A DNA stretch of 64,000 nt from a virus (IMGVR_UViG_3300045988_161046:1-64000); one strand, 5' to 3'. Positions 10,095 through 61,091 are shown, numbered from the stretch's first letter. Notes: generated by a model not told the origin, from the sequence alone. A program made the numbers and translations.

Positions 10095-12092
10095 ATGCAA
10101 CAACCACATTTGATATACCTAACCAAATTCCAGCAGCAGTCAGTGTACATGGCTGCGAAGGACGAAAGGGTAATTGCTGCAAGACGTGTGGGTAAAACCG
10201 ACGGTCTTGTGGCTCCCTACGTCTGGATGGCTTCTAACTCCATGCCCGGTATGCTGGGAGCCTGGGTAGCCGTATCACGACAGCAGGGATTCGGCAAGAC
10301 TATTCCTGGTACCATGGCTGCCATGGAACGAATGTTCGGCTTTACGCAGGGCATTCATTTCGGTTGGGGACGGCCACCGAAGCACGCTCGTGAGGCTATC
10401 TTTAAGCCGAAAAGTTATGATAATATCATTTGGTTTGCAAATGGTGCCCAGTGGGTACTTATCTCCCTCTCGCAGACCGCAAGCGCCAACAGTTACACTT
10501 TTTCGGCGATGGTAGGTGACGAGGCCAGGTTCTTCCCCTACAAGAAAGTAACAGATGAGTTGATGCCGGCGTTGTCAGGCCAGACTCACCCTTTGGGAAA
10601 CATCAATTTTACCGATTACAATCCACTCTATAAATCGACAAGATTCCTGTCTGATGCTTCGCTTACTACCAAGGGCAGTTGGCTGGAGCGTGAGGAGGAG
10701 AAGCTTGACCTTACGATAGAATCAGGTAAATTCCAGGGCAAGACTTACAGATGGGTACAGGAGCAGTTGGAAGACTATGCCAACAAGATTATCCGCTACA
10801 ACGACCTTATCTATAATGCCAAAAAGACCGGGCATACTCCCCATGCCGTGCCACCCGATTTGAGATTGATGATACGTGCCATCGCCCTCAAGATGATTAA
10901 GCACGAGGGTCAGTTTAAGATACTGCCAAATCACGGCAACAAGCTCACAAAAAACATGGTTGATATGGCGGTAAACTATAAGCTTGTGGATGCAGCGGAT
11001 GCGGAACTCATCTATGATTACGAATATCTGTTTACGGAAGAAGAATGGTGGGAAATGCAGATGTTCGACAAGGCGGATAAGTTTCGAGACGAATACCTGA
11101 GAGAGCTTCGCCGTTCGGCATTCCTCGTTCGCCGTGCCTCTACCCTCGACAATGTGGACTTGTTGAGTGAGGATTACATCCGAACCATGAAGCGAGATTT
11201 GCCTAACTACACCTTCATGGTTTCCATCCTGAACGTGAAAATCAAGAAATCGAACGATGGTTTCTATTCTAATCTGGATATAGATCATGTGCATGGCTAT
11301 ATAGTGGATGTTGACCCCCTTTCGCAAGCCAACTGGAGCACCCAGAAGGCTACAGGCATCATCGGCGGAAAAAAGATTACATCAGAGAGTTATCAGCCGG
11401 ATTTGAAGGAACTGTCCGAGAGAAACGATTGCCGTATGGATGCTGACTGCATAAACGACCTTCCTCTTTATCTCGCATTCGACTACAATGCGAATATCAA
11501 TACCCTGGTGGTAGGTCAGGTATATCAGCGCGACGGATTGGAGGCAGTGAATGTGATTAAGAGTTTCTATACGAAGAACGAACGGAAGCTGCGTGAACTG
11601 GTAGATGATTTCTCGCATTACTATGCTCCGAAGAGGGCCGTGAACAGGGATGTGGTTTACTTCTACGATTCCACAGCAAAACAAGGTGCATCGTATGCGC
11701 TGACCGATGAGCGATTCTATCAGGCAGTCATTAAAGAGTTGGAGCGCAATGGCTGGAATGTTACGGCGATAGATATGGGTGTGCCGGAGAAGCATGAGGT
11801 GAAACACCGTATCATCAATAATGCCCTTGCCGGTATCGAATATCCTGCTATCCGTATCAATGAGACCCAGAACCCTGATTTGATTATCGCACTGCAGCTC
11901 TGTGAGGTGAGCATAGGCTATCAGGGGTTCCGCAAGGATAAGAGTCAGGAGAAGAAAGCAGAGACGGAAGACAGCCTTCCGTTGCAGCAGAGAACTGACT
12001 TCACCGATGCCTTCGACTCTCTATATTTGGGATGCAAGTTCTGGCGAGGAAATATCGGCTGGTTTGTACTGCCGGACGGAAGGAACGTTTAA
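10095..12092 (+). CDS. terL: terminase large subunit
   Basis: It has a Walker A-like AARRVGKTDG and a Walker B-like SAMVGDEARF. Its size is 665 aa. The C-terminal half contains acidic nuclease-like motifs (LAFDYNANINTL). Confidence 0.8.
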   Translation: MQQPHLIYLTKFQQQSVYMAAKDERVIAARRVGKTDGLVAPYVWMASNSMPGMLGAWVAVSRQQGFGKTIPGTMAAMERMFGFTQGIHFGWGRPPKHAREAIFKPKSYDNIIWFANGAQWVLISLSQTASANSYTFSAMVGDEARFFPYKKVTDELMPALSGQTHPLGNINFTDYNPLYKSTRFLSDASLTTKGSWLEREEEKLDLTIESGKFQGKTYRWVQEQLEDYANKIIRYNDLIYNAKKTGHTPHAVPPDLRLMIRAIALKMIKHEGQFKILPNHGNKLTKNMVDMAVNYKLVDAADAELIYDYEYLFTEEEWWEMQMFDKADKFRDEYLRELRRSAFLVRRASTLDNVDLLSEDYIRTMKRDLPNYTFMVSILNVKIKKSNDGFYSNLDIDHVHGYIVDVDPLSQANWSTQKATGIIGGKKITSESYQPDLKELSERNDCRMDADCINDLPLYLAFDYNANINTLVVGQVYQRDGLEAVNVIKSFYTKNERKLRELVDDFSHYYAPKRAVNRDVVYFYDSTAKQGASYALTDERFYQAVIKELERNGWNVTAIDMGVPEKHEVKHRIINNALAGIEYPAIRINETQNPDLIIALQLCEVSIGYQGFRKDKSQEKKAETEDSLPLQQRTDFTDAFDSLYLGCKFWRGNIGWFVLPDGRNV

Positions 12093-30099: not shown

Positions 30100-31293
30100 T
30101 TATTCTTCAATAATCATCGGCATGAGCAGCGTCAATGCTCGTGGTGATGGCTCATTGGCTGTGATGACACCAGCGCGGCTCGGGTCGCCCAGATGCAGAC
30201 AGATGGTATCGCTAGGGATAGGTGCCAGTGAGTCGAGCAGACTGCTTGCCTTGAAAGCGATGCGATGGTCTTCCGGACAAGTGCTATCCGTGATAATTAC
30301 CTGGTCGTTTGCTGCCATGTTGAAGTCGAGGTCTCGCGCTGCCACATCGAGGAACATACCTTCCCTATTGAGCACAATCATGTTGCTGCTTTCACTTGCA
30401 AACAGAGCCACACGTTTTACAACATTTGCCAACTCACGTTTGTCAACTACCACCTTATAAGGGTTATTCTTTGGGATAACCGAGTTGTAGTTAGGGTACT
30501 GACCTGACACCTTCTTGCAGATGAAGGTAATATCGCCCGAAGTAAAGCGCACCATGGTTTCGTTTGCCTCAATATCGATGTCCTCGCAATCCTCGAAAAC
30601 GGAAAGGGTTCTGAAGTAGGCGTTATGTACGAGAATCTTACCTGGTGTACCATCACGGAAGAAATCGCTGCCACCAGTCTCAGGATTGTTGGTATGAATG
30701 AGTTTGATGAGTCGGTGGCCATCCGATGCCACAAAAGTCACATCACTTCGGTCCTCGGCTACATCGATGCAGAGGCACTTCATAATCGGTCGCAACTCAG
30801 AATCGGAAACAAACTTTCCGGCATGAGCGAGCACGTTCTTGAAGGTTGCCATCGGAAGGGCGATATGAATATCAGCATTGTTAGGCTGCTGCGCACGAGG
30901 AAAATTCTCTGCACTGAAATAAACCAGACTTACGTTACCCTTCTTTACATTCTCGCCGTTCTGAATGCAATACTCGATATTCATATTGCGTTCTTTATCC
31001 TGCGAGAGGTCGAGAGTAATCGCACAATCAGGGAGCGTAGAGAGGAGCGAAAGCAGATTACCGATAGGCAGAACTACATCTTCCTTGAAGCTGCCATCTA
31101 CGATACTGAGAGGCGCAGGTATAATGAGTTCCGAATCAGTGGTTCCGGCTACGAAGAAGAACTTACCATCCTCCTTACGCTGGATAAGGAGCACGTTGCT
31201 GAGTGCTACGATGGTTGACTTGCTGTCAATACACTTCGCTGCTTTCTGAAGAGCCTGGCGAAGCAATATAGATGATTGAGCTTGTATTTTCAT
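30100..31293 (-). CDS. dnaN: DNA polymerase III beta sliding clamp homologue
   Basis: Its size is 397 aa. The N-terminus reads LLRQALQKAAKCIDSKSTIVALSNVLL. It carries the hallmark motif FVASDGHRLIK, then SGQYPNYNSVIP, and ends in LLMPMIIEE. This layout is typical of DnaN. Confidence 0.8.
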   Translation of the reverse strand: MKIQAQSSILLRQALQKAAKCIDSKSTIVALSNVLLIQRKEDGKFFFVAGTTDSELIIPAPLSIVDGSFKEDVVLPIGNLLSLLSTLPDCAITLDLSQDKERNMNIEYCIQNGENVKKGNVSLVYFSAENFPRAQQPNNADIHIALPMATFKNVLAHAGKFVSDSELRPIMKCLCIDVAEDRSDVTFVASDGHRLIKLIHTNNPETGGSDFFRDGTPGKILVHNAYFRTLSVFEDCEDIDIEANETMVRFTSGDITFICKKVSGQYPNYNSVIPKNNPYKVVVDKRELANVVKRVALFASESSNMIVLNREGMFLDVAARDLDFNMAANDQVIITDSTCPEDHRIAFKASSLLDSLAPIPSDTICLHLGDPSRAGVITANEPSPRALTLLMPMIIEE

Positions 31294-35000: not shown

Positions 35001-35775
35001 CTTGCTGCATTGCCGGACGGAAAAAGCAGCCGCAGCTTCCCTGCGGGGCTATCACGTCTGTGGCGAAGCAGACGAACAGCGGATTCCAGGGCGTTCCGTA
35101 AATCACTTCACTTACCAGTTGCCCGTTTCTCACCACATTAGGCAGCGTTACCTGGTCCACGGCATAGATGCGGAAATCCTCGTTCAACATCTTGGTATTG
35201 AAGTCCTTTCCGAAGCCGTATTGCGGGATTCCCTTAACCGATGTGACTTCGCACCCCAGGGCTGCAAGCTCCTGGGGATTGAAATCTGTTTTTGGCATAA
35301 ATGAGAAAGTTTCTATCGTTTGTGGAGCGATTGTGCGATAATCCATCTTTGCAAAGAGCATCGGCCATTTGGCTCTCGTCTTCTCGTTGTCGCCATACAC
35401 CCTCACGATGAGGTCATGGCACAGACGCAGCAGACTGGCTCCGTGCATCGGCAGGTTGCGCATGGCGGCATAAAGCTCTAAGGCTCCATAGCCATACTTG
35501 CCGGTCTTGGTACACATCCAGCGCAGGGCACCATGCTCTGCCTTGGAATTGTCTTCCACCCCTACACCGTTATACATACCGCCTCGCTCATTATTGTAGA
35601 TAATGAGGTGAGGAGTCTGTTTTGCCTTGCCCTGCTCGCCATCGTCTGCCTCTTCCTTCTGGCAGAGCGGACAGAAACAGGCTGTCTGTCCCTCGATGCG
35701 CTGCTCATCGGCAGGTTTTACGAGGAATTGCATGTCGAGATTGGCAATCTGGTTCAATATAGGGTGAAATAACAT
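32092..35775 (-). CDS. large replication protein: putative primase fused to a P-loop NTPase (helicase-like)
   Basis: Its size is 1227 aa. The N-terminus has a CPLC zinc-ribbon-like motif. It has a Walker A QASGGSGKSMVV with a downstream acidic Walker B-like segment. It ends in DKDTLPF. Its position in the replication module supports the call, but the domain family is not verified. Confidence 0.55.
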   Translation of the reverse strand: MLFHPILNQIANLDMQFLVKPADEQRIEGQTACFCPLCQKEEADDGEQGKAKQTPHLIIYNNERGGMYNGVGVEDNSKAEHGALRWMCTKTGKYGYGALELYAAMRNLPMHGASLLRLCHDLIVRVYGDNEKTRAKWPMLFAKMDYRTIAPQTIETFSFMPKTDFNPQELAALGCEVTSVKGIPQYGFGKDFNTKMLNEDFRIYAVDQVTLPNVVRNGQLVSEVIYGTPWNPLFVCFATDVIAPQGSCGCFFRPAMQQDPIVFSTCEEHSVRKVSKWLMGDPVFVHAAENRTAENTAVYAAIKKYQPDEVYTEEKEIWVENETKDGEPKGTFHPEKKPIEVGDIKAQNIVFCRTPEDALSVYYAMQSLRKDKAGDKFFEKNSWYHVAFSIGRGYFWYIERGEWRQEKLDFSGVQYQKMKRFAERVIMIYPNDITSQRNCGAIATKFSDICYAMLPESFRVRYNQRWQWLYGCTPRSVRDYMLTYRMSDEDNFRFDHDIRLPLFSKLRGAKNTDPFDIEYPRDPRSGKQKPCTCKISPTKVWLFMTSHGYYRKIDPESNDLVGQFIHLDRCFVEYIDGKSIIQATKEKLLEFCEQSWRHNEQEQKLMSDCANLIDKNFSEKSAGGLQSIVIDFTEGYSENVEYFYFRNVALKITPEYITPISYDQCNFFIPATARKPYDFTMRHFDPPFIIKQSDEYTRRENEIAQKEAQKNEDGSPVFSIFEISQMKNDLREWGTVYRWDVDWRGKKDRELWPMLRILRGCSNVLWQEEMEADRSKHELSEEDKSIINAHFVNMVSGIGRVCYRDFSGTDSQSIPYLLEDQIEDEKQASGGSGKSMVVRVFVGSAVNVLNIDMKRFITTADARFSLGEIQHNPGMYRAIHWEDRPKSFPMDYFYVMATTGVTLECKGADIKTLSLKDSPLHIISSNFPYDGGVDSTAGRFPQIAFSNRFARENTLKRKMARSPGDILKGFNPDPEKLPDIARNQAIYITALAVQFMMRYHVVSKAPQLNLRRRNMISEITESCVRYFEFFFSREEVYGVPICADEMFNEFIRDWADASEGKSKEYSRATFKKKIHKYCESANIKCNPEHLFENVSDKQRNCFKMKAWVTQEYFVGREWENDNTIEPKFIRYIQTSKHVFFFYRPGKDTIPTDYKELKRIAKEFVENPDPLPYRDDEGHIVQLTTEEEERWNAYQKRKQGRFVAAQNAQNGSTAEATVEEIDKDTLPF

Positions 35776-36465: not shown

Positions 36466-36882
36466 TTATAAATTCAGAAATGTTTCCAGGCGATAATGCC
36501 TTATCTTGCAGTTACAGATGGTTTCCATGCGGTGTACTATCATCTGCGAGAGACTTTCCATCGTGAGGAATTCGGTATCTAGACCGATAATCTGCACCTC
36601 CTGCCTCCAATAGATCTTGCCGTTCTTGCGGCGGCAACTGTGCGAAGGCGTAATAATCATATCTTCCACACTGCCCGTCATCATCCTGCAAAGATACTCA
36701 CAGGTATCTTTTAGCAAGGCAAAGGGCGCATAGAAGAGGAGAGTCGGAATATCATCCTTCAGTCCGCTCATCGTCTCGGTATAGGCGAAACGATGCAGCA
36801 TTCTGTATCGTGATAGGTTCCTATGCCTCTTCTGTATGCCATTCCGGTTAGGGATATAGGGCAAATCAAACAGTCTTGGCAT
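36466..36882 (-). CDS. hypothetical protein
   Basis: Taken from the ORF track. Confidence 0.5.
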   Translation of the reverse strand: MPRLFDLPYIPNRNGIQKRHRNLSRYRMLHRFAYTETMSGLKDDIPTLLFYAPFALLKDTCEYLCRMMTGSVEDMIITPSHSCRRKNGKIYWRQEVQIIGLDTEFLTMESLSQMIVHRMETICNCKIRHYRLETFLNL

Positions 36883-37579
36883 AGCCTTCTCTTATCTTTT
36901 TCATCATCTGCCAGGTGGAGTAGATACTTCGCTTGCAGTCGAAAATCGGGTCATGCGCCGCACTTTCATCCGTAATGTCCTTATAGTCCGTAGTCAGGGC
37001 ATTAGCCTTGTCTAGGTCAAAAGGTTCTTCGTTTGGCTCGGCTGAATCCCATACGATTCTCGCAAGTTCAAGATAGAACGTGCGATGATCTCTCAGTTGG
37101 GTATGCTTAATCTGGAACTTGATGCACAGCTTGTAGCAGATATATCTCAAGATCGCCACATCGAAGTCAGTACCCTGCGCCCAAAGGCAAAGTTCTTCAT
37201 CACCGAGCTTCTTTTTAATATAGGCTATCCATCCGAACAGGTCGTTCACGACCACATCTATTGGCTGGCAGGGTGCCTCGTCGCTGTCATTGCCGAGCAA
37301 GGCAGCTTTTGCATCATCGCTCTGTTTGCTCCACCAGTCTGCCGTCGATTGATCGAAGGTGAAGCCATTCAGGAACATGCTCCTCAGGTCAATGTGAGCA
37401 GAGAATGTAGAGTTTCTTAACACACCATCACCATTCTCAAAGAATGGTGATTCTTTACCGTAGCGCTTCCACGCCACCGCGCCGATACTCATCACGGCAG
37501 CGGTGGGCGAAAGCGAACAGGTTTCTAAATCAACAGTTACATCTATCATATATGTAGTTACGATTTCTTGGCTTAACAT
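36866..37579 (-). CDS. DEDDh 3'-5' exonuclease (DnaQ-like)
   Basis: The Exo I motif is VTVDLETCS. The Exo II-like motif is WAQGTDFDVAILRY. The Exo III motif is AAHDPIFDC (H-x4-D). Confidence 0.7.
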   Translation of the reverse strand: MLSQEIVTTYMIDVTVDLETCSLSPTAAVMSIGAVAWKRYGKESPFFENGDGVLRNSTFSAHIDLRSMFLNGFTFDQSTADWWSKQSDDAKAALLGNDSDEAPCQPIDVVVNDLFGWIAYIKKKLGDEELCLWAQGTDFDVAILRYICYKLCIKFQIKHTQLRDHRTFYLELARIVWDSAEPNEEPFDLDKANALTTDYKDITDESAAHDPIFDCKRSIYSTWQMMKKIREGYAKTV

Positions 37580-39615: not shown

Positions 39616-39656
39616 AAATCCGTTTTTTACTTTTTTACCTTTTTGCTTTTTTACCT

Positions 39657-39974
39657 TTAAACTGCCCTGCAATAGATGACCGGCTCGCCGCTCTCATCAT
39701 TCTGCATACGGAAGCCCTGATAGCTTAACTCCTGCAGATAAAGAGAAAGCGGGTCGCCCAGCGGACAGACTATCGCCTTGAAATATTCACGAAGTCGGGC
39801 ATCATTGAATACCTCGCAGCCATCTACCCAATGATCCAACGGCTTATACTGATTACTGAAGGCTTCTATCTTTGCCGGGATAACGAAATCCTGCAGCGTA
39901 ACTTCTGCCTGTTCATCATTATCCACGATGTCGTAACCGTACTGCACGTGTTTCTTACTTTTTCCATTCCCCAT
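39657..39974 (-). CDS. hypothetical protein
   Basis: Taken from the ORF track. Its stop is followed by an R2 array. Confidence 0.5.
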   Translation of the reverse strand: MGNGKSKKHVQYGYDIVDNDEQAEVTLQDFVIPAKIEAFSNQYKPLDHWVDGCEVFNDARLREYFKAIVCPLGDPLSLYLQELSYQGFRMQNDESGEPVIYCRAV

Positions 39975-40613: not shown

Positions 40614-40723
40614 AGAAAAAAAAGGGTTTATGGTTGGGACAAACAAATAAAGGTAAAAAAGTAAAAAGGTAAAAAAGTAAAAAAGCCTAGCGGGATAATG
40701 GCTTGCTTTTTACCTTTTTACCT

Positions 40724-42016
40724 TTAACTTCTGTAGAACACAGGAGCAAAAGAGCCTTTGCAATCGAAAAACTCCTTTGCCTTCTCCTCGATACCCAACT
40801 TTCGGATCATTTCAAAATCATCATCGCTACACTCCACGCAGAACCTTCCGTTCTTCATGCCAATGAAGGAAATGCGGGAAAGCAGTAATTTCTCAGCATC
40901 GCCTATAATGAGCTTGCAGAATGCCTTCCACTTGTCAGCGCCTTGCCCGCTCTCGGTTACAATCTTACTTTCCGTAAGCTGATGCACATGGGCGAATATA
41001 TCACCCTCTACCGGTTTTCCAGTTTGCTGTGTGCTGTTCTGCTTATACCGCTCATTCAGAGTGGCAGCAATATCAGTGTTCTTATCCTTAGATAGATGAT
41101 TCTCGCCAACCACCGTGCGCCGTACATGAAACCTGATAAACTCCGGATCACCTTTTCGCTTGCCCGATTTATAGATGATGTCTTCATCTTTCAGCTCATC
41201 AAATACGATGTCCGTCTGGGATAACTTCTCCATCCTCTGCAAATCCTTACATACCACATCGAGGACCTGCTTTCTGAACTGCGAGAACTTGGGGTATTTG
41301 TTCATAACCGGTTCGCCCAGCTCATTCAATAGAATCTCCTTCTTGTTGTTATCTAGTTCTACCAAACCGAGATAAGACTTCAGTTCCAGGAAAGGCACCG
41401 ATATATCCATGCTGCGGTTCAAACCTATCTGACGCAAGAGATAGATATATACGCGTGGAGTGTTCACGTTCTTGGCAAACTTTGCTATCATGGATATATG
41501 GTGAATATACCCCTGCCCCATATCGAATACACGCTTAGAAAGTTTCGGGTCAATCTCAAGCAGGATATATCCCAGTATGCGGTCCACCTTCTTTCCGTCC
41601 TTAGTCGTATATCCGTTCTTCGACAATGGTATACGCATTCGGCTGAATATATGCGTAAATTCCTCGCTACCATCGGGCAGTGTACTCTTCACCGCCATAT
41701 CAAGAATACTTGTCTTCAGCTCCGCTCTCAACTTCTGATAGCTCATATTCTCGTAAGTAATGAAATCGTGAATATCTATCTTGATAGGCGGGATATTCAT
41801 AACAGCATGGTCCACGCCTTGCTCAAACAGAAAATCAGAACGAGCGTCGCCCAACTGTCTTTTCTCCAGGAAGTACTCATCCACAAATTTTTGGAGGTGG
41901 GTACTCGTTAGCATCAACACGTTCTGCTGGAACAAAGTGTATTGCTTATCCAGTTTCGTGAGCGAAAAAGGAGTATTTATCCAGGCTAAACCCTTGTTTT
42001 CATTATCTTCATTCAT
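40724..42016 (-). CDS. plasmid-type replication initiator (iteron-binding Rep, Rep_3-like)
   Basis: It is a 430-aa ORF whose ATG lies 3 nt from four tandem 22-bp iterons. The N-terminal FSLTKLDKQYTLFQQNVLML resembles Rep_3 initiators. The family assignment is from memory. Confidence 0.6.
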   Translation of the reverse strand: MNEDNENKGLAWINTPFSLTKLDKQYTLFQQNVLMLTSTHLQKFVDEYFLEKRQLGDARSDFLFEQGVDHAVMNIPPIKIDIHDFITYENMSYQKLRAELKTSILDMAVKSTLPDGSEEFTHIFSRMRIPLSKNGYTTKDGKKVDRILGYILLEIDPKLSKRVFDMGQGYIHHISMIAKFAKNVNTPRVYIYLLRQIGLNRSMDISVPFLELKSYLGLVELDNNKKEILLNELGEPVMNKYPKFSQFRKQVLDVVCKDLQRMEKLSQTDIVFDELKDEDIIYKSGKRKGDPEFIRFHVRRTVVGENHLSKDKNTDIAATLNERYKQNSTQQTGKPVEGDIFAHVHQLTESKIVTESGQGADKWKAFCKLIIGDAEKLLLSRISFIGMKNGRFCVECSDDDFEMIRKLGIEEKAKEFFDCKGSFAPVFYRS

Positions 42017-42018
42017 AT

Positions 42019-42106
42019 AAAATCTGACTTTTCGTTTACCTAAATCTGACTTTTCGTTTACCTAAATCTGACCTTTCGTTTACCTAAATCTGACCTTTCG
42101 TTTACC
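42019..42106 (+). repeat. four tandem 22-bp iterons (TAAATCTGACYTTTCGTTTACC)
   Basis: Read directly. Copies 1-2 have T at the variable position and copies 3-4 have C. Confidence 0.95.
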
Positions 42107-42205
42107 TAGAACTTTGTAAGTACTTAAATATCAGCACGTTAAGATTTTCCTAATATATATAATATAGATAATCTTATAATTTTCTATTTAAAGACTCCGT
42201 TTTTA
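42107..42205. promoter_or_regulatory. AT-rich spacer (candidate DNA-unwinding element) of the iteron origin
   Basis: The tract ...aatatatataatatagataatcttataattttctatttaaag... lies between the direct and inverted iterons. Confidence 0.5.
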
Positions 42206-42227
42206 GGTAAACGAAAAGTCAGATTTA
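42206..42227 (-). repeat. iteron, inverted copy
   Basis: The sequence ggtaaacgaaaagtcagattta is the exact reverse complement of the iteron unit. Confidence 0.95.
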
Positions 42228-42313
42228 GATAGGTAAATTGATACCAAGAACTATACCCCCTCGGTACTATTTCGGTACCTCGTCGAGGTAAAAGACTTTA
42301 GTAAGATTTTACC

Positions 42314-42335
42314 TAAATCTGACTTTTCGTTTACC
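42314..42335 (+). repeat. iteron, sixth copy (direct)
   Basis: The sequence is taaatctgacttttcgtttacc. It lies just downstream of the parG-like stop. Confidence 0.95.
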
Positions 42336-42339
42336 TAGA

Positions 42340-42762
42340 TTATCCGTTCTTATGTCTATCCAGATACTCGATAACTGCCTGCAGAGCGATGTCCTTGATA
42401 GGCGTACCCGTCTCCATCTTCATCTGAAGAATCTGCATGTAATATTTCATCGGCACATAGATGGTGATACCGTTTTGCGTCTTCTTGCCAGCCTTTCTCA
42501 TAGGTGCAGAGTCGGGAGCAGAAAAAGGAGCGGCTGATGCAGGAGGAACCGGAGACTGCGAAGGTGCTTCAGCCTGGGGTGCAGGTTCCGGCTCTGCGGT
42601 ACCCTGCCCGTTCTGCTGTTTCTCCAATGCCTCGGCAGCCCGCTTCTGGCGAGCTTCCTCATTCGCCTCATAAATTTTCTCTATACCTTGGATAGCTGGA
42701 GAGTCTTCCAGTCCTTTAAACTTGTTTACACTATTATTCTTTGCTTGTCTTGCCATAATCAC
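42340..42762 (-). CDS. ribbon-helix-helix centromere-binding protein candidate (ParG-like)
   Basis: It lies directly downstream of parA. It has a disordered A/P/Q-rich N-terminal half. The C-terminal segment GITIYVPMKYYMQILQMKMETGTPIKDIALQAVIEYLDRH fits a beta-alpha-alpha RHH fold. Confidence 0.55.
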   Translation of the reverse strand: MIMARQAKNNSVNKFKGLEDSPAIQGIEKIYEANEEARQKRAAEALEKQQNGQGTAEPEPAPQAEAPSQSPVPPASAAPFSAPDSAPMRKAGKKTQNGITIYVPMKYYMQILQMKMETGTPIKDIALQAVIEYLDRHKNG

Positions 42763-42797
42763 TAAACATTAATCATTAATCACTAAAACACTAATCA

Positions 42798-43670
42798 CTA
42801 CTTCGGCATACTTGCCAATATCTCCTTCGTAAAGTTCTCATAGTCTTGCCCTACTCTACTGTAAGGCGAATAAGAAAATATATCCTGATTGATAGCCTGC
42901 GCTTCCACCATCTTCGTATCACGACGAGTATACGAGTCGAACATGTAGTCATCAAACTTATTGCCCAGATACTCCTTAAACTGCTTTGTGGCTCTCGTCT
43001 GATCATTACTCATTACCATAAACAGACCACGAATATCAATATCAGGGTTCAAGTCTTCTCGCGTTTCCTGTACCGCATTCAGAATTTCGGCAATACCTTT
43101 TGTTGCCAACATTTCAAGCTGGATAGGTATCACTACACCCGATGCAACCGATAGGGCATTATGCGTGAGAAGTGACAAAGCTGGTGGGCAGTCAATCAAT
43201 ACATAGTCGAAAGCCTCCAGGATAGAAGATACTCCCTCATTTATCAGTTCATCACCCCGAACTTCGGTCAAAGGCTTGCCGAATAACTTAAACAAAGCCT
43301 TGCGTGGTACCGGCATCTGATTGAGGAATGGTTCGATATTGATAAGGCGATAAGATGCTGGAGCAAGATAGATACCTTCCCTTACCTGGTAAACAGGCAA
43401 GCGGGATTGCTGTATCATCGCATCGTACATGGTAGGCTGCCCCATATTCTCTGCCTCACTCCATCCAAAGAGGAAGGAAAGGCTCGACTGCGGATCGAGG
43501 TCGATGAGCAAGATACGAGGCTTGCGCTCCTTGCCGTTTTCACCCTTGCCAAAGTAACCCTTGCCATAACGACGAAGACCAGTTGCTAAACTCTGTACGG
43601 TTGTTGTCTTACCAACTCCTCCCTTGTGATTTACGAAGGCGAGGATTTCTTTTAATCTTGTTTCTGCCAT
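42798..43670 (-). CDS. parA: ParA/Soj-family partition ATPase
   Basis: It has the deviant Walker A NHKGGVGKTTT and a Walker B-like DYVLIDCPP. Confidence 0.9.
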   Translation of the reverse strand: MAETRLKEILAFVNHKGGVGKTTTVQSLATGLRRYGKGYFGKGENGKERKPRILLIDLDPQSSLSFLFGWSEAENMGQPTMYDAMIQQSRLPVYQVREGIYLAPASYRLINIEPFLNQMPVPRKALFKLFGKPLTEVRGDELINEGVSSILEAFDYVLIDCPPALSLLTHNALSVASGVVIPIQLEMLATKGIAEILNAVQETREDLNPDIDIRGLFMVMSNDQTRATKQFKEYLGNKFDDYMFDSYTRRDTKMVEAQAINQDIFSYSPYSRVGQDYENFTKEILASMPK

Positions 43671-43759
43671 AATCTTAAAAGTATTAATTCTTTTATATAT
43701 ATTAATGTATTCATTTCTTTGTTGAAAGAAAGAAAGCTATATTTTTTTCTTTCAATAAA

Positions 43760-44100
43760 CACACTAACGCATCCACACATAAATACACATTTGTGCTTTT
43801 CTGCTTTTGTGGAAACATGCTTTTGTGTTTTAATGCCGCAAAGTTAAGATTTTAATTTTAAACCGCCAAATGTTTTTAATATTTTTAATGCTTTTATGTA
43901 TGGATTGATGTATTGAAAGGAATAAACTAACAAATCAATCAAGAAATAAACCAATGAACGAACAAAGAAACAAACAAATGAAGAAACAAAGAAAGAAATT
44001 AATCAATAAATACACAAACACATAAATACATAAACACATAAACGTGTGTTTATGTATGCTTTTATGTATTTGCGTTTTTATGCTTTTCTGTTTTTTACCT
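43760..44100. repeat. repeat-rich AT-rich region upstream of parA (candidate centromere/operator)
   Basis: There are multiple RTGCTTTTNTG boxes at about 43792, 43800, 43817, 43889, 44055 and 44079. Arrays of ACATAAA/TTTATGT heptads form an imperfect palindrome centred near 44043. A -7 box TAACTTTG (minus strand) lies at 43839-43846. Confidence 0.6.
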
Positions 44101-44253
44101 TCTCATTTATCTTCTCAAAAGGAAAGGAAAAAGAAAACGTACCAAAGTATCGAAGTACGATAGTACTAAAGTGCTTTGGTACGTTTTCTTTTTCAGTGTT
44201 GAATGTTGAGTGTTAAATGTTGAATTTGGCTAGCGCCCTTGAGCCTGGTGGGG

Positions 44254-44290
44254 GACCAGCGATAGAATCGCTGGGGACGGGGGCGATAGG
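44254..44290 (+). repeat. R1 hairpin element copy E5, bracketed by inverted R3 TGTTGAA tracts (44196-44232 and 44313-44343)
   Basis: The sequence is GACCAGCGATAGAATCGCTGGGGACGGGGGCGATAGG. Confidence 0.9.
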
Positions 44291-44342
44291 AAGAAACGCA
44301 ACCCCGATAGACTAATTCAACATTCAACACTCAACATTGAAA

Positions 44343-45335
44343 TCAAAACTCCACCACGCTCTGTTCTTCCTCCCACGCATCATTGAGTGATACCGAAATG
44401 GTGGAATGGTGATTATAGTAAGAGCCGCTTACTACCGTAACATGGTTGCGCTGCAAACTGATGTTCGATAGCTTAAACGAGGTGTAAGGCTCGGTGCTGC
44501 CCTTGCGGTTCATGGTGAAGGTGATGTCCGTAGTATAGCCATCCTTCGGCACCAGGAAATAGTAGAAGAGGGAAGAGGAGGTTTTGCCGGCATATCTCGT
44601 AACGTCAGCGATACGCAGGTTTGATACCTTGCCGGTGGCGGCAAAGGTCTGCCAGTCCCATTGTTTATATTCATCGAGCTGTAACTGCAGGGTACTGCAA
44701 TCTTCCGGATATGTTCCGGTGTTCTTTACCGTCAGTTTCGCTACGATACGTTCCAGTTGGATATTGATACTCTGGTTCTGACCGACGCTTATACTCACGT
44801 CCTGCACTGCGCCGAAGCTGTCAGAGTTCTTCGTGCTCGTAAGCACAGCAGGAAGGACACCATCGGCAGACACCGAAAAGGCAGTATTATCTGCCAGACT
44901 CCATAACGAGCCATCAGCAGAGAGTAGGGTAGGGGTTTCGCTTCTCGTAGCTATCACCTTCAGCGTATGATTGCCGTAATCGAGACTCAGGGATGGCTCT
45001 GCAAAATCCTCGGCATCGGCAGTCTGGTGCAACACCTGGAGCAGTTTGCCGCTTGCCTTGTCGTAATCGAAGATGTAGAGGTCGGTCATCGCCTTGCCGT
45101 TGGCAGCAAGCTCGGCACGCGTGATAGGGTAGGCGATCCGTCGGCACTGGCTCACGCTCACGTCACCGCCTTCTGGCGAAGTAAACCGCAGTCTTACCAT
45201 AGTCTTGCCCGTCATAGGCCGGCTGCCTCCGTTCTCTACTGCATCTTCCACATACTCGGTGCATGAGGTATTCATCATCATGCACGCTGCCATCATCGCA
45301 AAGGTGGTGGCAAACAAAAACTTCTTAGTTCTCAT
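44343..45335 (-). CDS. lipoprotein, beta-rich (fimbrillin-like fold is only a guess)
   Basis: It has a signal peptide and a Cys, MRTKKFLFATTFAMMAACMMMNTSC, followed by acidic residues. Confidence 0.6.
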   Translation of the reverse strand: MRTKKFLFATTFAMMAACMMMNTSCTEYVEDAVENGGSRPMTGKTMVRLRFTSPEGGDVSVSQCRRIAYPITRAELAANGKAMTDLYIFDYDKASGKLLQVLHQTADAEDFAEPSLSLDYGNHTLKVIATRSETPTLLSADGSLWSLADNTAFSVSADGVLPAVLTSTKNSDSFGAVQDVSISVGQNQSINIQLERIVAKLTVKNTGTYPEDCSTLQLQLDEYKQWDWQTFAATGKVSNLRIADVTRYAGKTSSSLFYYFLVPKDGYTTDITFTMNRKGSTEPYTSFKLSNISLQRNHVTVVSGSYYNHHSTISVSLNDAWEEEQSVVEF

Positions 45336-46368: not shown

Positions 46369-46463
46369 TCAAGCAGCACGCCCTGAAAAGGCAGCAGCTC
46401 CTAGCCCAGGGCAGCGCCCTGGGTAATCATAAGCGCGCCCCTTTCGCCCTGTAAGGGCAAAAG
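46369..46463 (+). repeat. REP-like element, copy A of an inverted pair (partner at 57904-57998)
   Basis: It contains the CCCAGGGCGCTGCCCTGGG palindrome and CAGGGCG boxes. It overlaps the last ~20 codons of 46401..48155. Confidence 0.85.
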
Positions 46464-48155
46464 CTTTTTCTCGTTTCCAGGTGGTGGCATAGGCTGCGCA
46501 GCCACACCCACCAGATGGTGGATTTTTCTTGCGTCTATGCCCTTATCTCGCCCAGAAGGTGTAGTTGTAGGCGACGATACAAGATAGCCGCATACAGACT
46601 TAAAATCTCTGGTGTACGATGGTGATGCAAGCAACTCGGCAATATTCATCTTTACGATAGCCGCAGGAACGGAAGCATAAGGGTGTTTTATTTCTTTCTC
46701 TTCTTCCTCCTTATCCTGTGCCAAATCTGCATGCTCCTTCGCCTTCAATGCATCCTTGAACATTTTATCCAGCTTCACGCCCTTGTAGGCGAAGAAAGCG
46801 CAGCCACGATAACTGTTAGCCTTATTCCGTCTATCATCAGGCATGAACTCCTTGCAGAAACCGGAAAGGGTGTAAACCTTGCCCTGATATACCACCTTGT
46901 TATTGTCTATCGTGATAACCCTCTGCCCACCATGGATAAAAGTAATGATGTCGCCAGGCTCGATACCGATTTTATCAAAAGCAAACTTGCGGCTATCATC
47001 TACAGACTTCTTTTTCTTCTCTGAAGATAATGCAGCTTTCTCTTCTGCCGCAGGAGCAGTGATTTCGCAGGTCTTCTGTAATAGCTTAACACCTTTGCCT
47101 GGTTCCCCCGCATCATATACGCCATCAGCCACCTTTTCGCCGATATATGAATCACCATCCTTGCGAGGGCAGAGCAGATAAACGTTTCCGTTCTCACTCT
47201 CAGCCATCTTCAGAGTCTTCTCATTGATACCCAGATAGAGAATATCCAACTGAGGGATAGAGAGAAGATGCTCTGTGCCGAAACTAAGGGCAAAGCTATG
47301 TTTCAATACTTCATCGGTGGCAAAGGTGGCTACGTTCTCGCCCATCTTTACCGTGATAACCTTCTCGCCCTTCTTTCCGGAAAGAGAAACATATTCCTCT
47401 CCAGATACAGAATAGATCATCTTGCGGATAGCATCCCAGCTGCCGCCGATACGGACGCAATATCCGTCGAAGATGTTGCCGAAGCAGGATGCCCAGTCTA
47501 CGAACCGACAAGGAGAAGGTTCATAAGAAGTCATGCCATCAAACTCTATTACGGTAGTCTCTTCACGATTATCCAGTTTCACGGCCGCCAGTTCGTACAC
47601 TTCACCCGGCTTCATCTTTGCGCACATCTTCTTCCAGGTCTTCGCATTGATGAGCATTTCGCGGGTATCCCCCGATTTCTGGGTGATGGTAACAGGCATA
47701 GCCAGCAGCTTATGGCTATCAGTAGCCACCAGGCGGTTTCTCTCTGCATCTATAAATATACTGATTATTGCCTCCATATCATGCTTTTTATAGACGAAAT
47801 CGCAAAGTTCTGCCATCTCCTTGGTAGCCTGAAAACATACGCAGCCACGTTCCTTCTCGTTCTCTTCCTGATAAGTAAACATGCGCGCATTCTTGCCAAT
47901 GCCGGCAAGACCCTCGAACTTAGTAACAAGACGGAAGATATACGCAGCAGCAAACTCGCAGCGGAAGCTGCCTACCTCTATCTGGAATGACTGATCTTTA
48001 TCTGCATCACCCCAATAAAAAATCTTACCCATGTTCTTTGCTATCTCGCTGGCACGGAAACAACCGTGGTCGTTTCTTACCATCTTCTGCCAAATCATTT
48101 CGGCTATCTCATACAGTTTGTTGAGGATAGCCATATTCAGTTCCTTATTTGTCAT
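46401..48155 (-). CDS. divergent beta-clamp-like protein with extra N- and C-terminal regions
   Basis: RLVATDSHKLLAMPV matches the DnaN ATDGHRL motif. The downstream segments CRFVDWASCF (compare FPDY..VIP) and NVYLLCPRK (compare y.lMP.r) occur in DnaN-like order. It has about 200 extra C-terminal residues. Confidence 0.5.
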   Translation of the reverse strand: MTNKELNMAILNKLYEIAEMIWQKMVRNDHGCFRASEIAKNMGKIFYWGDADKDQSFQIEVGSFRCEFAAAYIFRLVTKFEGLAGIGKNARMFTYQEENEKERGCVCFQATKEMAELCDFVYKKHDMEAIISIFIDAERNRLVATDSHKLLAMPVTITQKSGDTREMLINAKTWKKMCAKMKPGEVYELAAVKLDNREETTVIEFDGMTSYEPSPCRFVDWASCFGNIFDGYCVRIGGSWDAIRKMIYSVSGEEYVSLSGKKGEKVITVKMGENVATFATDEVLKHSFALSFGTEHLLSIPQLDILYLGINEKTLKMAESENGNVYLLCPRKDGDSYIGEKVADGVYDAGEPGKGVKLLQKTCEITAPAAEEKAALSSEKKKKSVDDSRKFAFDKIGIEPGDIITFIHGGQRVITIDNNKVVYQGKVYTLSGFCKEFMPDDRRNKANSYRGCAFFAYKGVKLDKMFKDALKAKEHADLAQDKEEEEKEIKHPYASVPAAIVKMNIAELLASPSYTRDFKSVCGYLVSSPTTTPSGRDKGIDARKIHHLVGVAAQPMPPPGNEKKLLPLQGERGALMITQGAALG

Positions 48156-51225: not shown

Positions 51226-51260
51226 CTTTTTTACCTTTTTACCCTTTTACCTTTAAAAAT

Positions 51261-59282: not shown

Positions 59283-59377
59283 AGGAGATTTATCGAAACT
59301 ACCAAACTTTTTCCAAGAAAATTCCATTTTATAAGTAATTTTTCGCCAAAAAACTTGCGTAAATCAATATTTTGTTA

Positions 59378-59385
59378 TACTTTTG
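59378..59385 (+). promoter_or_regulatory. -7 box TACTTTTG (plus strand) upstream of the XRE gene
   Basis: It lies about 32 nt upstream of the ATG at 59417. Confidence 0.45.
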
Positions 59386-59416
59386 CATCCGAACAATAAT
59401 ATATCAGATAAAGATT

Positions 59417-60082: not shown

Positions 60083-60122
60083 GTGTTGAATGTTGAATGA
60101 TTTAAACAAAAATTAGAAGAAT

Positions 60123-60974: not shown

Positions 60975-61007
60975 AGGTAAAAAAGTAAAAAGGTAAAAAG
61001 GTAAAAA

Positions 61008-61042
61008 GAGCCTAGCGGGAGATAGGGACTCCTGCTAGGCTC
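61008..61042. terminator. bidirectional terminator hairpin (13-bp stem GAGCCTAGCGGGA/TCCTGCTAGGCTC) flanked by inverted GGTAAAAA arrays
   Basis: It lies between convergent genes. The upstream flank is A-rich and the downstream flank is T-rich. The R2 arrays lie at 60974-61008 and 61097-61137. Confidence 0.7.
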
Positions 61043-61053
61043 TTTTCTTTTAG

Positions 61054-61091
61054 GACCAGCGATAGAATCGCTGGGGACGGAGGCAAGGGGG
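61054..61091 (+). repeat. R1 hairpin element copy E6
   Basis: The sequence is GACCAGCGATAGAATCGCTGGGGACGGAGGCAAGGGGG. Confidence 0.9.

What the first reader, a model, noticed from the sequence alone, without database searches (positions are those of the whole stretch)
40724..43670. Plasmid-type maintenance module (parA, RHH parG-like gene, six 22-bp iterons with AT-rich spacer, rep) inside a tailed-phage genome
- A ParA ATPase with a deviant Walker A is followed by an RHH protein.
- Next come four perfect tandem 22-bp iterons, an AT-rich block of about 100 bp, one inverted iteron and one further direct iteron.
- A 430-aa initiator gene follows, with its ATG 3 nt from the iterons.
- This is the canonical architecture of an iteron-controlled theta replicon with type Ib partition.
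- The window also contains the terminase, tape measure and tail fibre genes, but no integrase is present.
- This predicts an extrachromosomal prophage, that is, a phage-plasmid. The phage additionally encodes its own clamp, SSB-like protein and primase, so it may have two replication modes.
Basis: partly seen in the sequence, partly recalled or inferred. Interest (0 to 1): 0.65.

Follow-up and report, generated by a model that had tools for sequence, protein, structure and literature searches.

The report
Plasmid-style maintenance module in Segatella phage
A roughly 100-kb tailed phage of the gut bacterium Segatella (Prevotella) carries a complete plasmid-type replication and partition module, related to that of its host's own plasmids, so it most likely persists as a free circular "phage-plasmid", a known lifestyle not previously described for this host group.

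Summary

**What is on the minus strand**
- parA, encoding a 290-aa ATPase with the motif KGGVGKT.
- A 138-aa protein with a C-terminal ribbon-helix-helix (RHH) fold.
- Six exact 22-bp iterons: four tandem, one inverted, one distal.
- A 97-bp block of 23% GC.
- A 430-aa Rep whose ATG lies 3 nt from the iteron array.

**Rep**
- It is 58% identical to the Rep of Segatella copri plasmids and large extrachromosomal elements, which have the same gene order.
- Its profile hits the R6K π protein, and its model matches RepE and RctB.

8-bp-periodic repeat arrays upstream of parA. They look like a centromere/operator, and their motif changes with the ParA/RHH type.

**The host genome**
- It assembles as a 101.7-kb circle.
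- It carries a terminase, holin, tape-measure-like gene, tail genes and an endolysin. The last two were found outside the window or in relatives.
- No integrase was found.

**Across 46–51 related loci** (51 for Rep, 46 with the par region):
- Four Rep/iteron specificity types and four par types assort independently as two adjacent swappable cassettes.
- Iteron sequence always tracks Rep type.

**Novelty:** a new member of a known kind (phage-plasmid). Function is untested.

The parts
43745..44100 (.). Candidate centromere/operator (parC-like): arrays of 8-bp-phased short repeats (CATAAA / GCAnAAA type), direct and inverted, on both sides of a Bacteroidetes -7 box (TAACTTTG, 43846-43839, minus strand)
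   Evidence: TRF finds period-8 arrays at 44006-44042 and 44055-44095. Lag-8 autocorrelation is 0.52, higher than any other lag. The same holds in all 46 related loci, and the repeated motif changes with the ParA/RHH type. Promoter box. Function is inferred.
42798..43670 (-). parA: 290-aa partition ATPase with deviant Walker A (KGGVGKT) and no N-terminal DNA-binding domain (type Ib size)
   Evidence: Pfam AAA_31 4.9e-36 and CbiA 2.9e-11. NCBIfam ParA_partition and partition RepA hits fall below cut-off. phrog_164 ParA-like, 6e-50. 42% identical to the ParA of the S. copri plasmid.
42340..42756 (-). parG-like centromere-binding protein candidate: basic N-terminus (MARQAKN..KF), low-complexity linker, C-terminal ribbon-helix-helix
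   Evidence: No Pfam or PHROG hit. phmmer hit to the RHH protein ORF56 of pRN1, E=0.01. AF2 model: strand, helix 103-116, helix 120-136, pLDDT 77-81. Best Foldseek matches are the RHH proteins CdbA, HicB and Arc (rmsd 1.7-2.0 Å), with non-significant E-values. All four par types keep the same C-terminal pattern.
42238..42337 (-). Conserved junction between the par and rep cassettes. Holds the distal direct iteron (42315-42336), a palindrome identical to the type-4 repeat unit (42286-42302) and a copy of the type-2 repeat unit (42241-42258)
   Evidence: Motif map. The segment stays 85-93% identical in relatives whatever their par or rep type. Meaning is unexplained.
42205..42226 (-). Inverted iteron on the far side of the AT-rich block
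   Evidence: Exact match. Present in all type-1 relatives.
42108..42204 (.). AT-rich spacer (23-24% GC), candidate DNA-unwinding element
   Evidence: Composition profile. An AT-rich block sits at the same position in the S. copri plasmid and in all four replicon types. No DnaA box with one mismatch or fewer.
42020..42107 (-). Four tandem 22-bp iterons (two sequence variants) abutting the rep start codon
   Evidence: TRF period 22, 4.0 copies, 98% matches. 0 expected by chance. Copy number is 3-7 in close relatives.
40724..42016 (-). rep: 430-aa initiator. N-terminal roughly 300 aa form tandem winged-helix domains that determine iteron specificity. Then a disordered linker (residues 310-349) and a conserved C-terminal domain of about 80 aa (window 40724-40967)
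   Evidence: 58% identical to the S. copri plasmid Rep, annotated by PGAP as 'RepB family plasmid replication initiator'. Profile hit to R6K π, 1.4e-5. Homologues carry PF01051/PF21205. Foldseek matches RctB and RepE. Pfam on the protein itself gives only Rep3_C at E=0.042, below cut-off. The C-terminal domain is 68-88% identical across types whose N-termini are about 30% identical.
40640..40730 (.). Palindromic terminator-like element downstream of rep: (AAAGGTAA)n, a GC hairpin, then (CTTTTTAC)n
   Evidence: TRF period-8 arrays at 40649-40685 and 40706-40725; sequence. Role is inferred.
10095..12092 (+). Context: large terminase subunit of the carrier phage
   Evidence: tblastn gives 30% identity over 78% of the length to the Microcystis phage 'terminase large subunit', E=1e-35, and hits to Porphyromonas phage 'terminase LSU'. 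Weak phrog_2 hit.
30100..31293 (-). Context: phage-encoded DnaN β-clamp. It belongs to a separate replication gene block with the 1227-aa primase-helicase-like ORF (32092-35775), an SSB-like ORF (31354-31950) and an exonuclease (36866-37579)
   Evidence: All three DnaN Pfam domains and phrog_947 at 9e-43. Exonuclease phrog_255 at 4e-36. The 1227-aa ORF has an N-terminal CxxC and a GGSGKS Walker A, read from the sequence only.

Best explanation
**Claim.** Window 40724-44100 is a complete low-copy plasmid maintenance module carried by a tailed, temperate-type phage of Segatella/Prevotella. The phage genome is a 101.7-kb circle.

**Replication (inferred).**
- Rep binds as a monomer, through two winged-helix domains, to the 22-bp iterons next to its own start codon.
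- This melts the adjacent 97-bp AT-rich block and recruits host replication proteins, possibly through the conserved C-terminal domain. Theta replication follows.
- The iterons reach to within 3 nt of the rep ATG, so Rep binding should also repress rep.
- The inverted and distal iterons should allow pairing (handcuffing), which would limit copy number.

**Partition (inferred).**
- The RHH protein binds the 8-bp-phased repeat arrays around the parA promoter. These would serve as both centromere and operator.
- Its basic N-terminal tail stimulates the ParA ATPase, which segregates the copies, as in type Ib systems.

**Consequence.** The phage would be inherited as a free circular prophage, that is, a phage-plasmid, rather than integrating. 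Its separate primase-helicase, clamp, SSB and exonuclease genes would serve lytic replication.

**Shown:** the anatomy, the homologies, covariation of sites with proteins, a circular assembly, and no integrase found.
**Inferred:** every biochemical step and the extrachromosomal state.
For: **Anatomy.** Six exact iterons, none expected by chance. AT-rich block. Gene order parA, RHH, ori, rep.

**Rep family.**
- The Rep family profile hits R6K π at 1.4e-5.
- Homologues carry Rep_3 or Rep3_C domains.
- The predicted fold matches RctB domains 2-3 and iteron-bound RepE, probability 0.92-0.98.

**Plasmid ancestry.**
- Rep is 58% and ParA 42% identical to those of the circular, phage-free 58.9-kb S. 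copri DSM 18205 plasmid.
- That plasmid has seven 22-bp iterons abutting the rep ATG, an AT-rich block and two inverted iterons.
- The same Rep family sits on S. copri plasmids and extrachromosomal elements of 40-135 kb. Their biology is described in PMC10635906.

**Covariation, the strongest functional argument.**
- Among 51 related phage loci, four Rep types are only about 30-38% identical in the N-terminal part.
- Each type has its own repeat array in the same place, and type-1 arrays vary from 3 to 7 copies.
- Independently, the 8-bp arrays upstream of parA change motif with the ParA/RHH type: CATAAA/GCAnAAA, versus GTAC in 9-26 copies, versus TATTTA.

**Phage and lifestyle.**
- TerL, holin and a Cro/CI-type HTH protein.
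- Tail proteins and a reverse transcriptase just beyond the window.
- GH108 endolysin and a 1096-aa tape-measure-like gene in a 93%-identical relative.
- No integrase, recombinase or transposase hit in any scan.
- The window reads straight through the 99-nt overlap joining both ends of the 101,802-bp k99 contig.
- Near-full-length relatives of 94-110 kb break at different positions.
Against: - No experiment or read-level data shows an extrachromosomal state or replication from this origin.
- Pfam does not place this Rep in Rep_3 on its own: only Rep3_C at E=0.042, below the cut-off. The Rep model has moderate confidence (pLDDT 70.9, pTM 0.40).
- RHH support is weak statistically: E=0.01 by sequence, and Foldseek E above 3.
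- About 30 kb of this exact genome was judged only through 93%-identical relatives. Small ORFs and a gap of about 1.5 kb were not scanned, so a small recombinase could have been missed.
- A circular assembly also fits a terminally redundant, circularly permuted lytic phage.
- No canonical Bacteroidetes promoter box was found directly upstream of rep.
- No isolate carrying this element was found.
Confidence: 0.78

Rival explanations
1. The Rep/iteron/AT-rich unit is the phage's vegetative (lytic) origin, as λ O protein and ori-λ are. The phage would be virulent, or would persist only transiently, and ParA/RHH would have another role such as positioning replication or packaging. No stable plasmid prophage would exist.
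For: - An initiator with four or more iterons and an AT-rich block is also the layout of lambdoid lytic origins (established knowledge).
- A circular assembly fits permuted, terminally redundant packaging.
- No isolate lysogen was found.
- No clear DNA polymerase or other initiator was identified in the separate replication block.
Against: - The whole cassette (parA, RHH, ori, rep) is homologous to, and collinear with, that of real S. copri plasmids and extrachromosomal elements.
- A partition ATPase with matching centromere-like arrays that co-vary with it has no obvious use in a purely lytic cycle.
- Iterons abutting the rep ATG, plus inverted and distal copies, are copy-control features.
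- Diversification into four rep and four par specificities is what incompatibility pressure on co-resident plasmids would produce.
- A Cro/CI-type HTH gene is present.
Confidence: 0.12
2. The element is an ordinary integrating prophage. Its integrase and att site lie in the part of the genome not examined directly, and the plasmid module is a passenger or a relic.
For: - About 30 kb of this exact genome was seen only through relatives.
- A gap of about 1.5 kb and ORFs under roughly 100 aa were not scanned.
- One S. copri isolate has the plasmid-type Rep inside a 3.14-Mb contig (L178), so such modules can end up in chromosomes.
Against: - No integrase, recombinase or transposase family hit in any ORF scanned across the window, L057, L074, L097 and L119.
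- The contig closes on itself with no host flank.
- Relatives of 94-110 kb are circular permutations of one another rather than sharing fixed ends.
- The module is intact and under evident selection, given the site-protein covariation.
Confidence: 0.05
3. The element is a plasmid, or a small Segatella extrachromosomal element, that has captured a defective prophage or tailocin-like cluster. It would no longer form infectious particles.
For: - The maintenance module is of plasmid descent.
- Capsid and portal genes could not be recognised by any profile.
Against: - TerL, holin, endolysin, tape-measure-like and tail genes, a DGR-type reverse transcriptase and a phage-style replication block are all present and intact.
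- Dozens of syntenic genomes of about 100 kb occur in independent samples and were classed as viral in IMG/VR.
- A homologue is deposited as 'Caudoviricetes sp.'.
- The lack of profile hits fits a very divergent phage lineage.
Confidence: 0.05

Closest known systems
Segatella copri plasmid and large-extrachromosomal-element replicons (e.g. DSM 18205 plasmid unnamed2 NZ_CP085934.1; HDD04 extrachromosomal NZ_CP152485.1; G8 plasmid NZ_CP146525.1)
   Same: - Same order: parA, small RHH-like gene, inverted iterons, AT-rich block, direct 22-bp iterons abutting the ATG, rep.
- Rep is 58% identical over its full length, including the C-terminal domain; ParA is 42% identical.
- The iterons share the GGTAAA...AAAAGT...TTT frame.
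   Different: - Those replicons carry metabolic genes, toxin-antitoxin genes and, per PMC10635906, rRNA genes, and no phage genes.
- Their iteron (GGTAAATAGAAAAGTGGTTTT, 4-17 copies per locus, 13-17 in most) never occurs in the phage, and the phage motifs never occur on them. The two are therefore predicted to be compatible.
Phage P1 plasmid prophage (RepA with incC/incA iterons, plus ParA-ParB-parS)
   Same: - A tailed phage maintained as a low-copy circular plasmid.
- Uses an iteron-binding winged-helix initiator whose iterons overlap its own expression signals, extra iterons for copy control, a Walker-type partition ATPase, and separate lytic replication functions (established knowledge).
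   Different: - P1's partition system is type Ia: a large ParA with an HTH domain, an HTH ParB, and parS downstream. Here a small ParA is paired with an RHH protein and upstream 8-bp arrays (type Ib-like).
- There is no detectable sequence similarity.
- The host phylum differs.
- This Rep has an extra conserved C-terminal domain.
Type Ib partition systems: ParF-ParG-parH of TP228, δ-ω of pSM19035
   Same: - A small deviant-Walker-A ATPase, followed by a dimeric RHH centromere-binding protein with a flexible basic N-terminal tail.
- The centromere is an array of short repeats upstream of the ATPase gene and doubles as the operator. In TP228 the tetramer boxes plus 4-bp spacers give an 8-bp period (recalled knowledge, not tested here).
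   Different: - No sequence-level match to ParG or ω.
- The RHH protein is about twice as long, with a Pro/Ala/Gln-rich linker.
- Binding and ATPase stimulation are untested.
Iteron initiators RepE (mini-F), π (R6K), RepA (pPS10) and RctB domains 2-3 (Vibrio chromosome 2)
   Same: - Tandem winged-helix fold: Foldseek probability 0.92-0.98, and a profile hit to the π WH2 domain.
- Cognate direct repeats of about two helical turns (22 bp) beside an AT-rich region.
   Different: - Sequence identity is only 10-16%.
- This Rep is 430 aa, with an added C-terminal α-α-β-β-α-α domain of about 80 aa. That domain's only structural echoes are weak ones: DnaA domain I (TM 0.55) and DciA, with no sequence support.
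λ O protein / ori-λ
   Same: A phage-encoded initiator binding four iterons next to an AT-rich region.
   Different: - In λ the iterons lie inside the O gene and serve lytic replication; there is no partition system.
- Here the origin is intergenic, linked to par genes, and of plasmid descent.

Membership tests
Rep_3 / RepE / π-type iteron-binding initiators | Significant match to the family's sequence profile (Pfam PF01051 Rep_3 / PF21205 Rep3_C) | tested here: inconclusive
   - The protein itself gives only Rep3_C at E=0.042 (14.5 bits, cut-off 21.1) and no Rep_3 hit.
- A profile of 11 family members hits R6K π WH2 at 1.4e-5.
- Homologues at 47%, 34% and 30% identity carry PF01051 or PF21205.
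- PGAP names the 58%-identical plasmid protein 'RepB family plasmid replication initiator'.
Rep_3 / RepE / π-type iteron-binding initiators | Two tandem winged-helix domains | tested here: met
   The AF2 model (pLDDT 70.9) matches RctB domains 2-3 (E 7.6e-4, probability 0.98) and RepE (2z9o, 1rep; probability 0.92-0.98). The model has moderate confidence.
Rep_3 / RepE / π-type iteron-binding initiators | Cognate direct repeats (iterons) beside an AT-rich region next to the gene, specific to the protein | tested here: met
   - Six exact 22-bp copies, none expected by chance.
- Four Rep types each have their own repeat at the same place.
- The plasmid homologue has its own variant.
Rep_3 / RepE / π-type iteron-binding initiators | Iteron binding and origin firing | not testable with these tools
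   Needs EMSA or footprinting and a replication assay in Segatella.
Type Ib (ParA-ParG/ω-like) partition system | Small Walker-type ParA with deviant Walker A and no N-terminal HTH domain | tested here: met
   290 aa with KGGVGKT at residues 15-21. AAA_31 covers residues 8-213. phrog_164 at 6e-50.
Type Ib (ParA-ParG/ω-like) partition system | Downstream ribbon-helix-helix centromere-binding protein | tested here: inconclusive
   - No Pfam or PHROG hit.
- RHH protein ORF56 at E=0.01; the profile search was no better.
- The model shows β-α-α at pLDDT 77-81. The best structural neighbours are the RHH proteins CdbA, HicB and Arc at rmsd 1.7-2.0 Å, but with E above 3.
- No match to ParG or ω themselves.
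Type Ib (ParA-ParG/ω-like) partition system | Centromere of short repeats upstream of parA that also covers the promoter | tested here: met
   - 8-bp periodicity exceeds every other lag in all 46 loci.
- The motif switches with the ParA/RHH type.
- The arrays flank a TAACTTTG -7 box.
- Binding was not tested.
Phage-plasmids | Phage packaging, structural and lysis genes and plasmid replication/partition genes on one replicon | tested here: met
   - TerL and holin are in the window; tail proteins on the same contig.
- Endolysin and a tape-measure-like gene are in a 93%-identical relative.
- Rep and par: as in the rows for the other two families.
- Capsid and portal genes were not recognised.
Phage-plasmids | No integration machinery | tested here: met
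   No integrase, resolvase, recombinase or transposase hit in any scanned ORF of the window or of the relatives covering the rest of the genome. ORFs under about 100 aa and a gap of about 1.5 kb were not scanned.
Phage-plasmids | Extrachromosomal circular maintenance in the lysogen | not testable with these tools
   The available evidence is indirect: the assembly is circular (99-nt k-mer overlap) and relatives are circularly permuted. No isolate or read data were available.

The most novel reading that the evidence does not exclude
This phage lineage treats its maintenance functions as two adjacent hot-swappable specificity cassettes:
- parC-parA-RHH, window 42239-44361.
- ori plus Rep codons 1 to about 350, window 40968-42237.

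The cassettes are bounded by a conserved 100-bp junction and by the conserved Rep C-terminal domain. At least 10 of the 16 possible par × rep combinations occur.

In the most novel reading, the single copies of non-cognate iterons kept in the junction are functional. Examples are the type-2 and type-4 units in this type-1 genome, and a type-1 iteron in type-2 and type-3 genomes. They would act as decoy or handcuffing sites through which co-resident phage-plasmids of other types sense, titrate or exclude one another. That would be an incompatibility 'barcode' system among competing phage-plasmids in one host population.
Probability: 0.15. Interest if true: 0.75.

Novelty: new member of a known kind. 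Interest (0 to 1): 0.52.

Why it matters
**Ecology.** Segatella/Prevotella dominate the gut of much of the world's population, yet their phages and plasmids are barely characterised and genetic tools are scarce.
- If the prediction holds, a widespread phage family persists as a plasmid. The family genomes are about 100 kb, seen as dozens of near-complete genomes, with Rep clusters of hundreds of metagenomic sequences, including Hadza samples.
- That would change how its lifestyle is scored. Integrase-based tools would call it virulent.
- It would also change how phage-host dynamics and gene flow in Segatella are read.

**Tools.** The compact, well-delimited origin and partition cassettes are natural starting points for shuttle vectors for these hard-to-engineer bacteria. 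They come in four naturally orthogonal specificities that differ from the host's own plasmid iterons.

**Evolution.** The independent reassortment of the par and rep cassettes is a clean natural example of incompatibility-driven diversification in a phage-plasmid.

Tried and rejected
- **DNA searches.** Searches of the module and of 50 kb of the window against GenBank phages found only tiny fragments. No described phage is close.
- **crAss-like phage-plasmid** (PMC10983915): rejected. That model rests on RepL genes, and nothing here resembles Crassvirales genes.
- **The 1227-aa ORF as tape measure:** rejected. It lies among replication genes and has a CxxC motif and a Walker A. It has no PDB or Pfam hit.
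- **Structural genes.** PHROG and Pfam scans of presumed capsid, portal and tape-measure ORFs in relatives gave nothing.
- **Rep C-terminal domain as DnaA domain I or DciA-like:** only weak Foldseek echoes, and no sequence support from a 14-sequence profile against the PDB. Kept as a guess only.
- **RHH profile against the PDB:** did not improve on the single sequence.
- **DnaA boxes in the origin:** none with one mismatch or fewer.
- **Canonical promoter box directly upstream of rep:** none found.
- **RNA genes.** No tRNA and no Rfam family in the window.
- **Exact-protein look-ups that failed.**
  - Window 609-1292 failed because it is a spurious ORF opposite the tape-measure-like gene.
  - Window 63031-63912 failed because the real 370-aa gene runs off the window's end.
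  - Window 3762-4238 also failed; the reason was not established.
- **The 30-bp repeats at 58496-58602 as a second origin:** rejected. They encode a peptide repeat.
- **Literature.** Searches found no description of a Segatella/Prevotella phage-plasmid. The library is incomplete, so prior description cannot be excluded.

Full report
**1.

The following lie on the minus strand:
- parA at 43670..42798 (290 aa, 'NHKGGVGKTT').
- A 138-aa ORF at 42756..42340.
- rep at 42016..40724 (430 aa).

Repeats and spacer:
- The 22-bp unit AAATCTGACYTTTCGTTTACCT occurs exactly six times in 64 kb. None is expected in shuffles.
- Four copies are tandem at 42020-42107, as two variants that differ at one base (TRF 98% matches).
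- One copy is inverted at 42205-42226 and one is direct at 42315-42336.
- Between the array and the inverted copy lies a 97-bp block of 23-24% GC.
- The rep ATG is 3 nt from the array.

**2. The proteins.**

ParA:
- It is an unambiguous small partition ATPase: AAA_31 4.9e-36, phrog_164 6e-50.

The small protein:
- It has no Pfam or PHROG hit.
- Its C-terminus (ITIYVPMKYYMQILQMKMETGTPIKDIALQAVIEYLDRH) matches the RHH protein ORF56 of pRN1 at E=0.01.
- It is modelled as strand-helix-helix at pLDDT 77-81.
- Its nearest structures are the RHH proteins CdbA, HicB and Arc at 1.7-2.0 Å, but with non-significant E-values.
- The same C-terminal pattern and a basic N-terminus (MARQAKN..KF) recur in all variants of the protein in relatives, separated by a variable low-complexity linker.

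Rep:
- On its own it gives only a sub-threshold Rep3_C hit (E=0.042).
- A profile of 11 family members hits the WH2 domain of R6K π at 1.4e-5.
- Database homologues carry PF01051 or PF21205.
- An AF2 model (pLDDT 70.9) matches RctB domains 2-3 and iteron-bound RepE with probability 0.92-0.98.

**3. The module is of Segatella plasmid descent.**

- A DNA search hit the circular 58.9-kb plasmid unnamed2 of S. copri DSM 18205. That plasmid carries no phage genes and has ParA, a small protein and a 'RepB family' initiator in the same order.
- Rep is 58% identical over its full length and ParA 42%.
- The plasmid has seven 22-bp iterons (GGTAAATAGAAAAGTGGTTTTA) abutting the rep ATG, an AT-rich block and two inverted copies. 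This is the window's architecture with a related but distinct repeat.
- A scan of species-representative genomes found the same Rep family on S. copri plasmids and 'extrachromosomal' replicons of 40-135 kb, and the phage-type Rep (97% identical) in a Prevotella MAG.
- These are the large extrachromosomal elements described in PMC10635906.
- The plasmid-type iteron is present in 4-17 copies in those loci (13-17 in most) and never in the phage. The phage motifs never occur on them.

**4. The carrier is a circular phage genome of about 101.7 kb with no integrase found.**

Circularity:
- The window is 100% identical to ENA contig k99_35637, which is 101,802 bp.
- Window 60877-60975 is the 99-nt stretch present at both contig ends, and the window reads straight through it. 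The assembly is therefore circular.
- Fifty-one IMG/VR loci carry a related Rep, mostly on contigs of 94-110 kb broken at different places.
- Independent samples, including Hadza metagenomes, give contigs of 104.2 kb.

Phage genes:
- Large terminase at 10095-12092: 30% identity over 78% of the length to annotated terminases, E=1e-35.
- Holin, YopX and a Cro/CI-type HTH protein.
- Tail proteins (phrog_5302 at 4e-23, phrog_3267) and a reverse transcriptase just beyond the window.
- GH108 endolysin and a second primase in a 93%-identical relative.
- A 1096-aa tape-measure-like ORF whose residues 57-594 are encoded at window 1-1613, minus strand.

Separate replication block:
- DnaN clamp and an exonuclease.
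- An SSB-like ORF ending in DDLPF.
- A 1227-aa ORF with a zinc-finger-like CxxC and a Walker A.

No integrase, resolvase, recombinase or transposase family was hit in any scan. Capsid and portal genes were not recognised, so the lineage is very divergent.

**5. Sites co-vary with proteins, which is the best available evidence for function.**

Four Rep types occur in otherwise syntenic genomes:
- The N-terminal roughly 300 aa are about 30-38% identical between types.
- The C-terminal 80-90 aa are 68-88% identical.

Each type has its own repeat array beside an AT-rich block in the same place:

| Rep type | Repeat unit | Arrangement |
|---|---|---|
| 1 | GGTAAACGAAAAGTCAGATTT | 3-7 copies abutting the ATG, plus an inverted copy |
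| 2 | GGGTATAGTTTTTGGTAC | 6-12 copies |
| 3 | TCACTACAAATGTGGCTAAG | up to five direct copies, AT-rich block, up to four inverted copies |
| 4 | 29-bp palindromic unit | three direct and two inverted copies |

Independently, the roughly 500 bp upstream of parA shows 8-bp periodicity that exceeds every other lag in all 46 loci. Its motif follows the ParA/RHH type:
- CATAAA/GCAnAAA with the window's type.
- GTAC-containing octamers, 9-26 copies, with two other types.
- TATTTA with the fourth type.

These arrays flank a Bacteroidetes -7 box.

**6. The module consists of two swappable cassettes.**

- Par types and rep types assort independently. Ten of the 16 possible combinations were seen.
- Pairwise DNA comparison places sharp homology breaks at window 42238 and at about 40940-40967 for the rep cassette. 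That cassette holds the ori and Rep codons 1 to about 350, and ends in the predicted disordered linker.
- The par cassette breaks at 42238 and 44361.
- The 100-bp junction at 42238-42337 is conserved whatever the types. It holds the distal type-1 iteron, a copy of the type-4 unit and a copy of the type-2 unit.
- Type-2 and type-3 genomes likewise keep a type-1 iteron.
- Whether these copies are scars of exchange or functional cross-binding sites is open.

**7. Mechanism (inferred from the named families).**

- Rep monomers bind the iterons, open the AT-rich block and load host replication proteins. The conserved C-terminal domain is a candidate recruitment module.
  - Its only structural echoes are weak ones to DnaA domain I and DciA, with no sequence support.
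  - No DnaA box is present.
- Iterons over the rep start give autoregulation. The inverted and distal copies give handcuffing.
- The RHH protein on the 8-bp arrays, together with ParA, gives type Ib partition and par autoregulation.
- The separate primase-helicase, clamp, SSB and exonuclease genes would serve lytic replication.

**8. Comparison and verdict.**

- Functionally this parallels the P1 plasmid prophage. The differences are a type Ib-like partition system, a Bacteroidota host and plasmid-derived parts.
- By descent it belongs with the Segatella plasmid and extrachromosomal-element replicons.
- Phage-plasmids are a known kind. I found no paper describing one in Segatella/Prevotella, although related sequences sit unannotated in public databases, for example 'Caudoviricetes sp.'.
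- I rate it a new member of a known kind and of moderate interest. The cassette system and the non-cognate iterons are the most novel open point.
- Nothing about replication, partition or the extrachromosomal state has been shown experimentally.

Noticed in passing
window 23663, 25875, 31326, 32028, 44256, 61056 (each 19 nt, minus strand): The hairpin CCAGCGATTCTATCGCTGG occurs six times, always on the gene-sense strand, against none expected by chance. Some copies are framed by inverted GTTGAAT/ATTCAAC 7-mer arrays (44195-44225 / 44315-44338; 60068-60099). It may be a family-specific terminator, a processing site or a protein-binding site.
   Followed up: partly
window 12091-12117, 39623-39658, 40649-40725, 51228-51254, 60973-61134: 8-bp arrays (AAAGGTAA / CTTTTTAC) flank GC hairpins and form long palindromic, bidirectional-terminator-like elements between genes. 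The GGTAAA core also appears in the type-1 and type-4 iterons.
   Followed up: no
window 61791-61834 and 62039-62084: Tandem arrays TTTCGGGATTG (4 copies) and TTCTCTGATT (4.6 copies) lie in a non-coding stretch upstream of two TATCTTTG promoter-like boxes, near the Cro/CI-type HTH gene (59372-60082, plus strand, opposite to its neighbours). They are a candidate lysis-lysogeny switch or a second (lytic) origin.
   Followed up: partly
window 32092-35775 and 31354-31950: The 1227-aa primase-helicase-like ORF and the SSB-like ORF both end in an acidic D(D/T)LPF tip. This may be a shared docking motif like the SSB C-terminal tail. Neither has a Pfam, PHROG or PDB sequence hit.
   Followed up: partly
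window 46401-48155: A 584-aa ORF of unknown function has a weak stretch matching phrog_3007, a profile that is labelled RusA-like but is also hit by the phage's DnaN. It may be a second, divergent clamp-like protein.
   Followed up: no
window 58496-58602: 30-bp tandem repeats (3.6 copies) are coding. They specify SGVFxQNxxK peptide repeats in ORF 58050-58808, so they are not an origin.
   Followed up: yes
L057:5555-7003 (616-2064 nt beyond the window's 3' end) and L057:2543-5075: A reverse transcriptase (phrog_1423, 1e-61) sits next to tail-protein genes, which suggests a diversity-generating retroelement acting on a receptor-binding protein. Template and variable repeats were not searched.
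   Followed up: no
L074:6548-7750 (relative IMGVR_UViG_3300045988_160689): A β-ketoacyl synthase (PF00109 1.8e-25, PF02801 7e-19) is encoded within the tail-gene region of a related phage, an unusual gene for that location.
   Followed up: no
L178 (S. copri H-2632, NZ_JAVSCC010000001.1, 2.62 Mb into a 3.14-Mb contig): The plasmid-type Rep (58% identical), with 14 plasmid-type iterons, lies inside a chromosome-sized contig. This could be an integrated plasmid or extrachromosomal element, or a misassembly.
   Followed up: no
L012:9039-9728: Relatives with the most divergent par type carry two RHH genes in tandem (147 aa and 76 aa) between parA and the origin.
   Followed up: no
window 44343-45335: Directly upstream of the par arrays lies a lipoprotein with weak Mfa2/fimbrillin-like and DUF6562 matches. 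It varies strongly among relatives (42-98% identity) and may be a lysogenic-conversion or surface gene.
   Followed up: no
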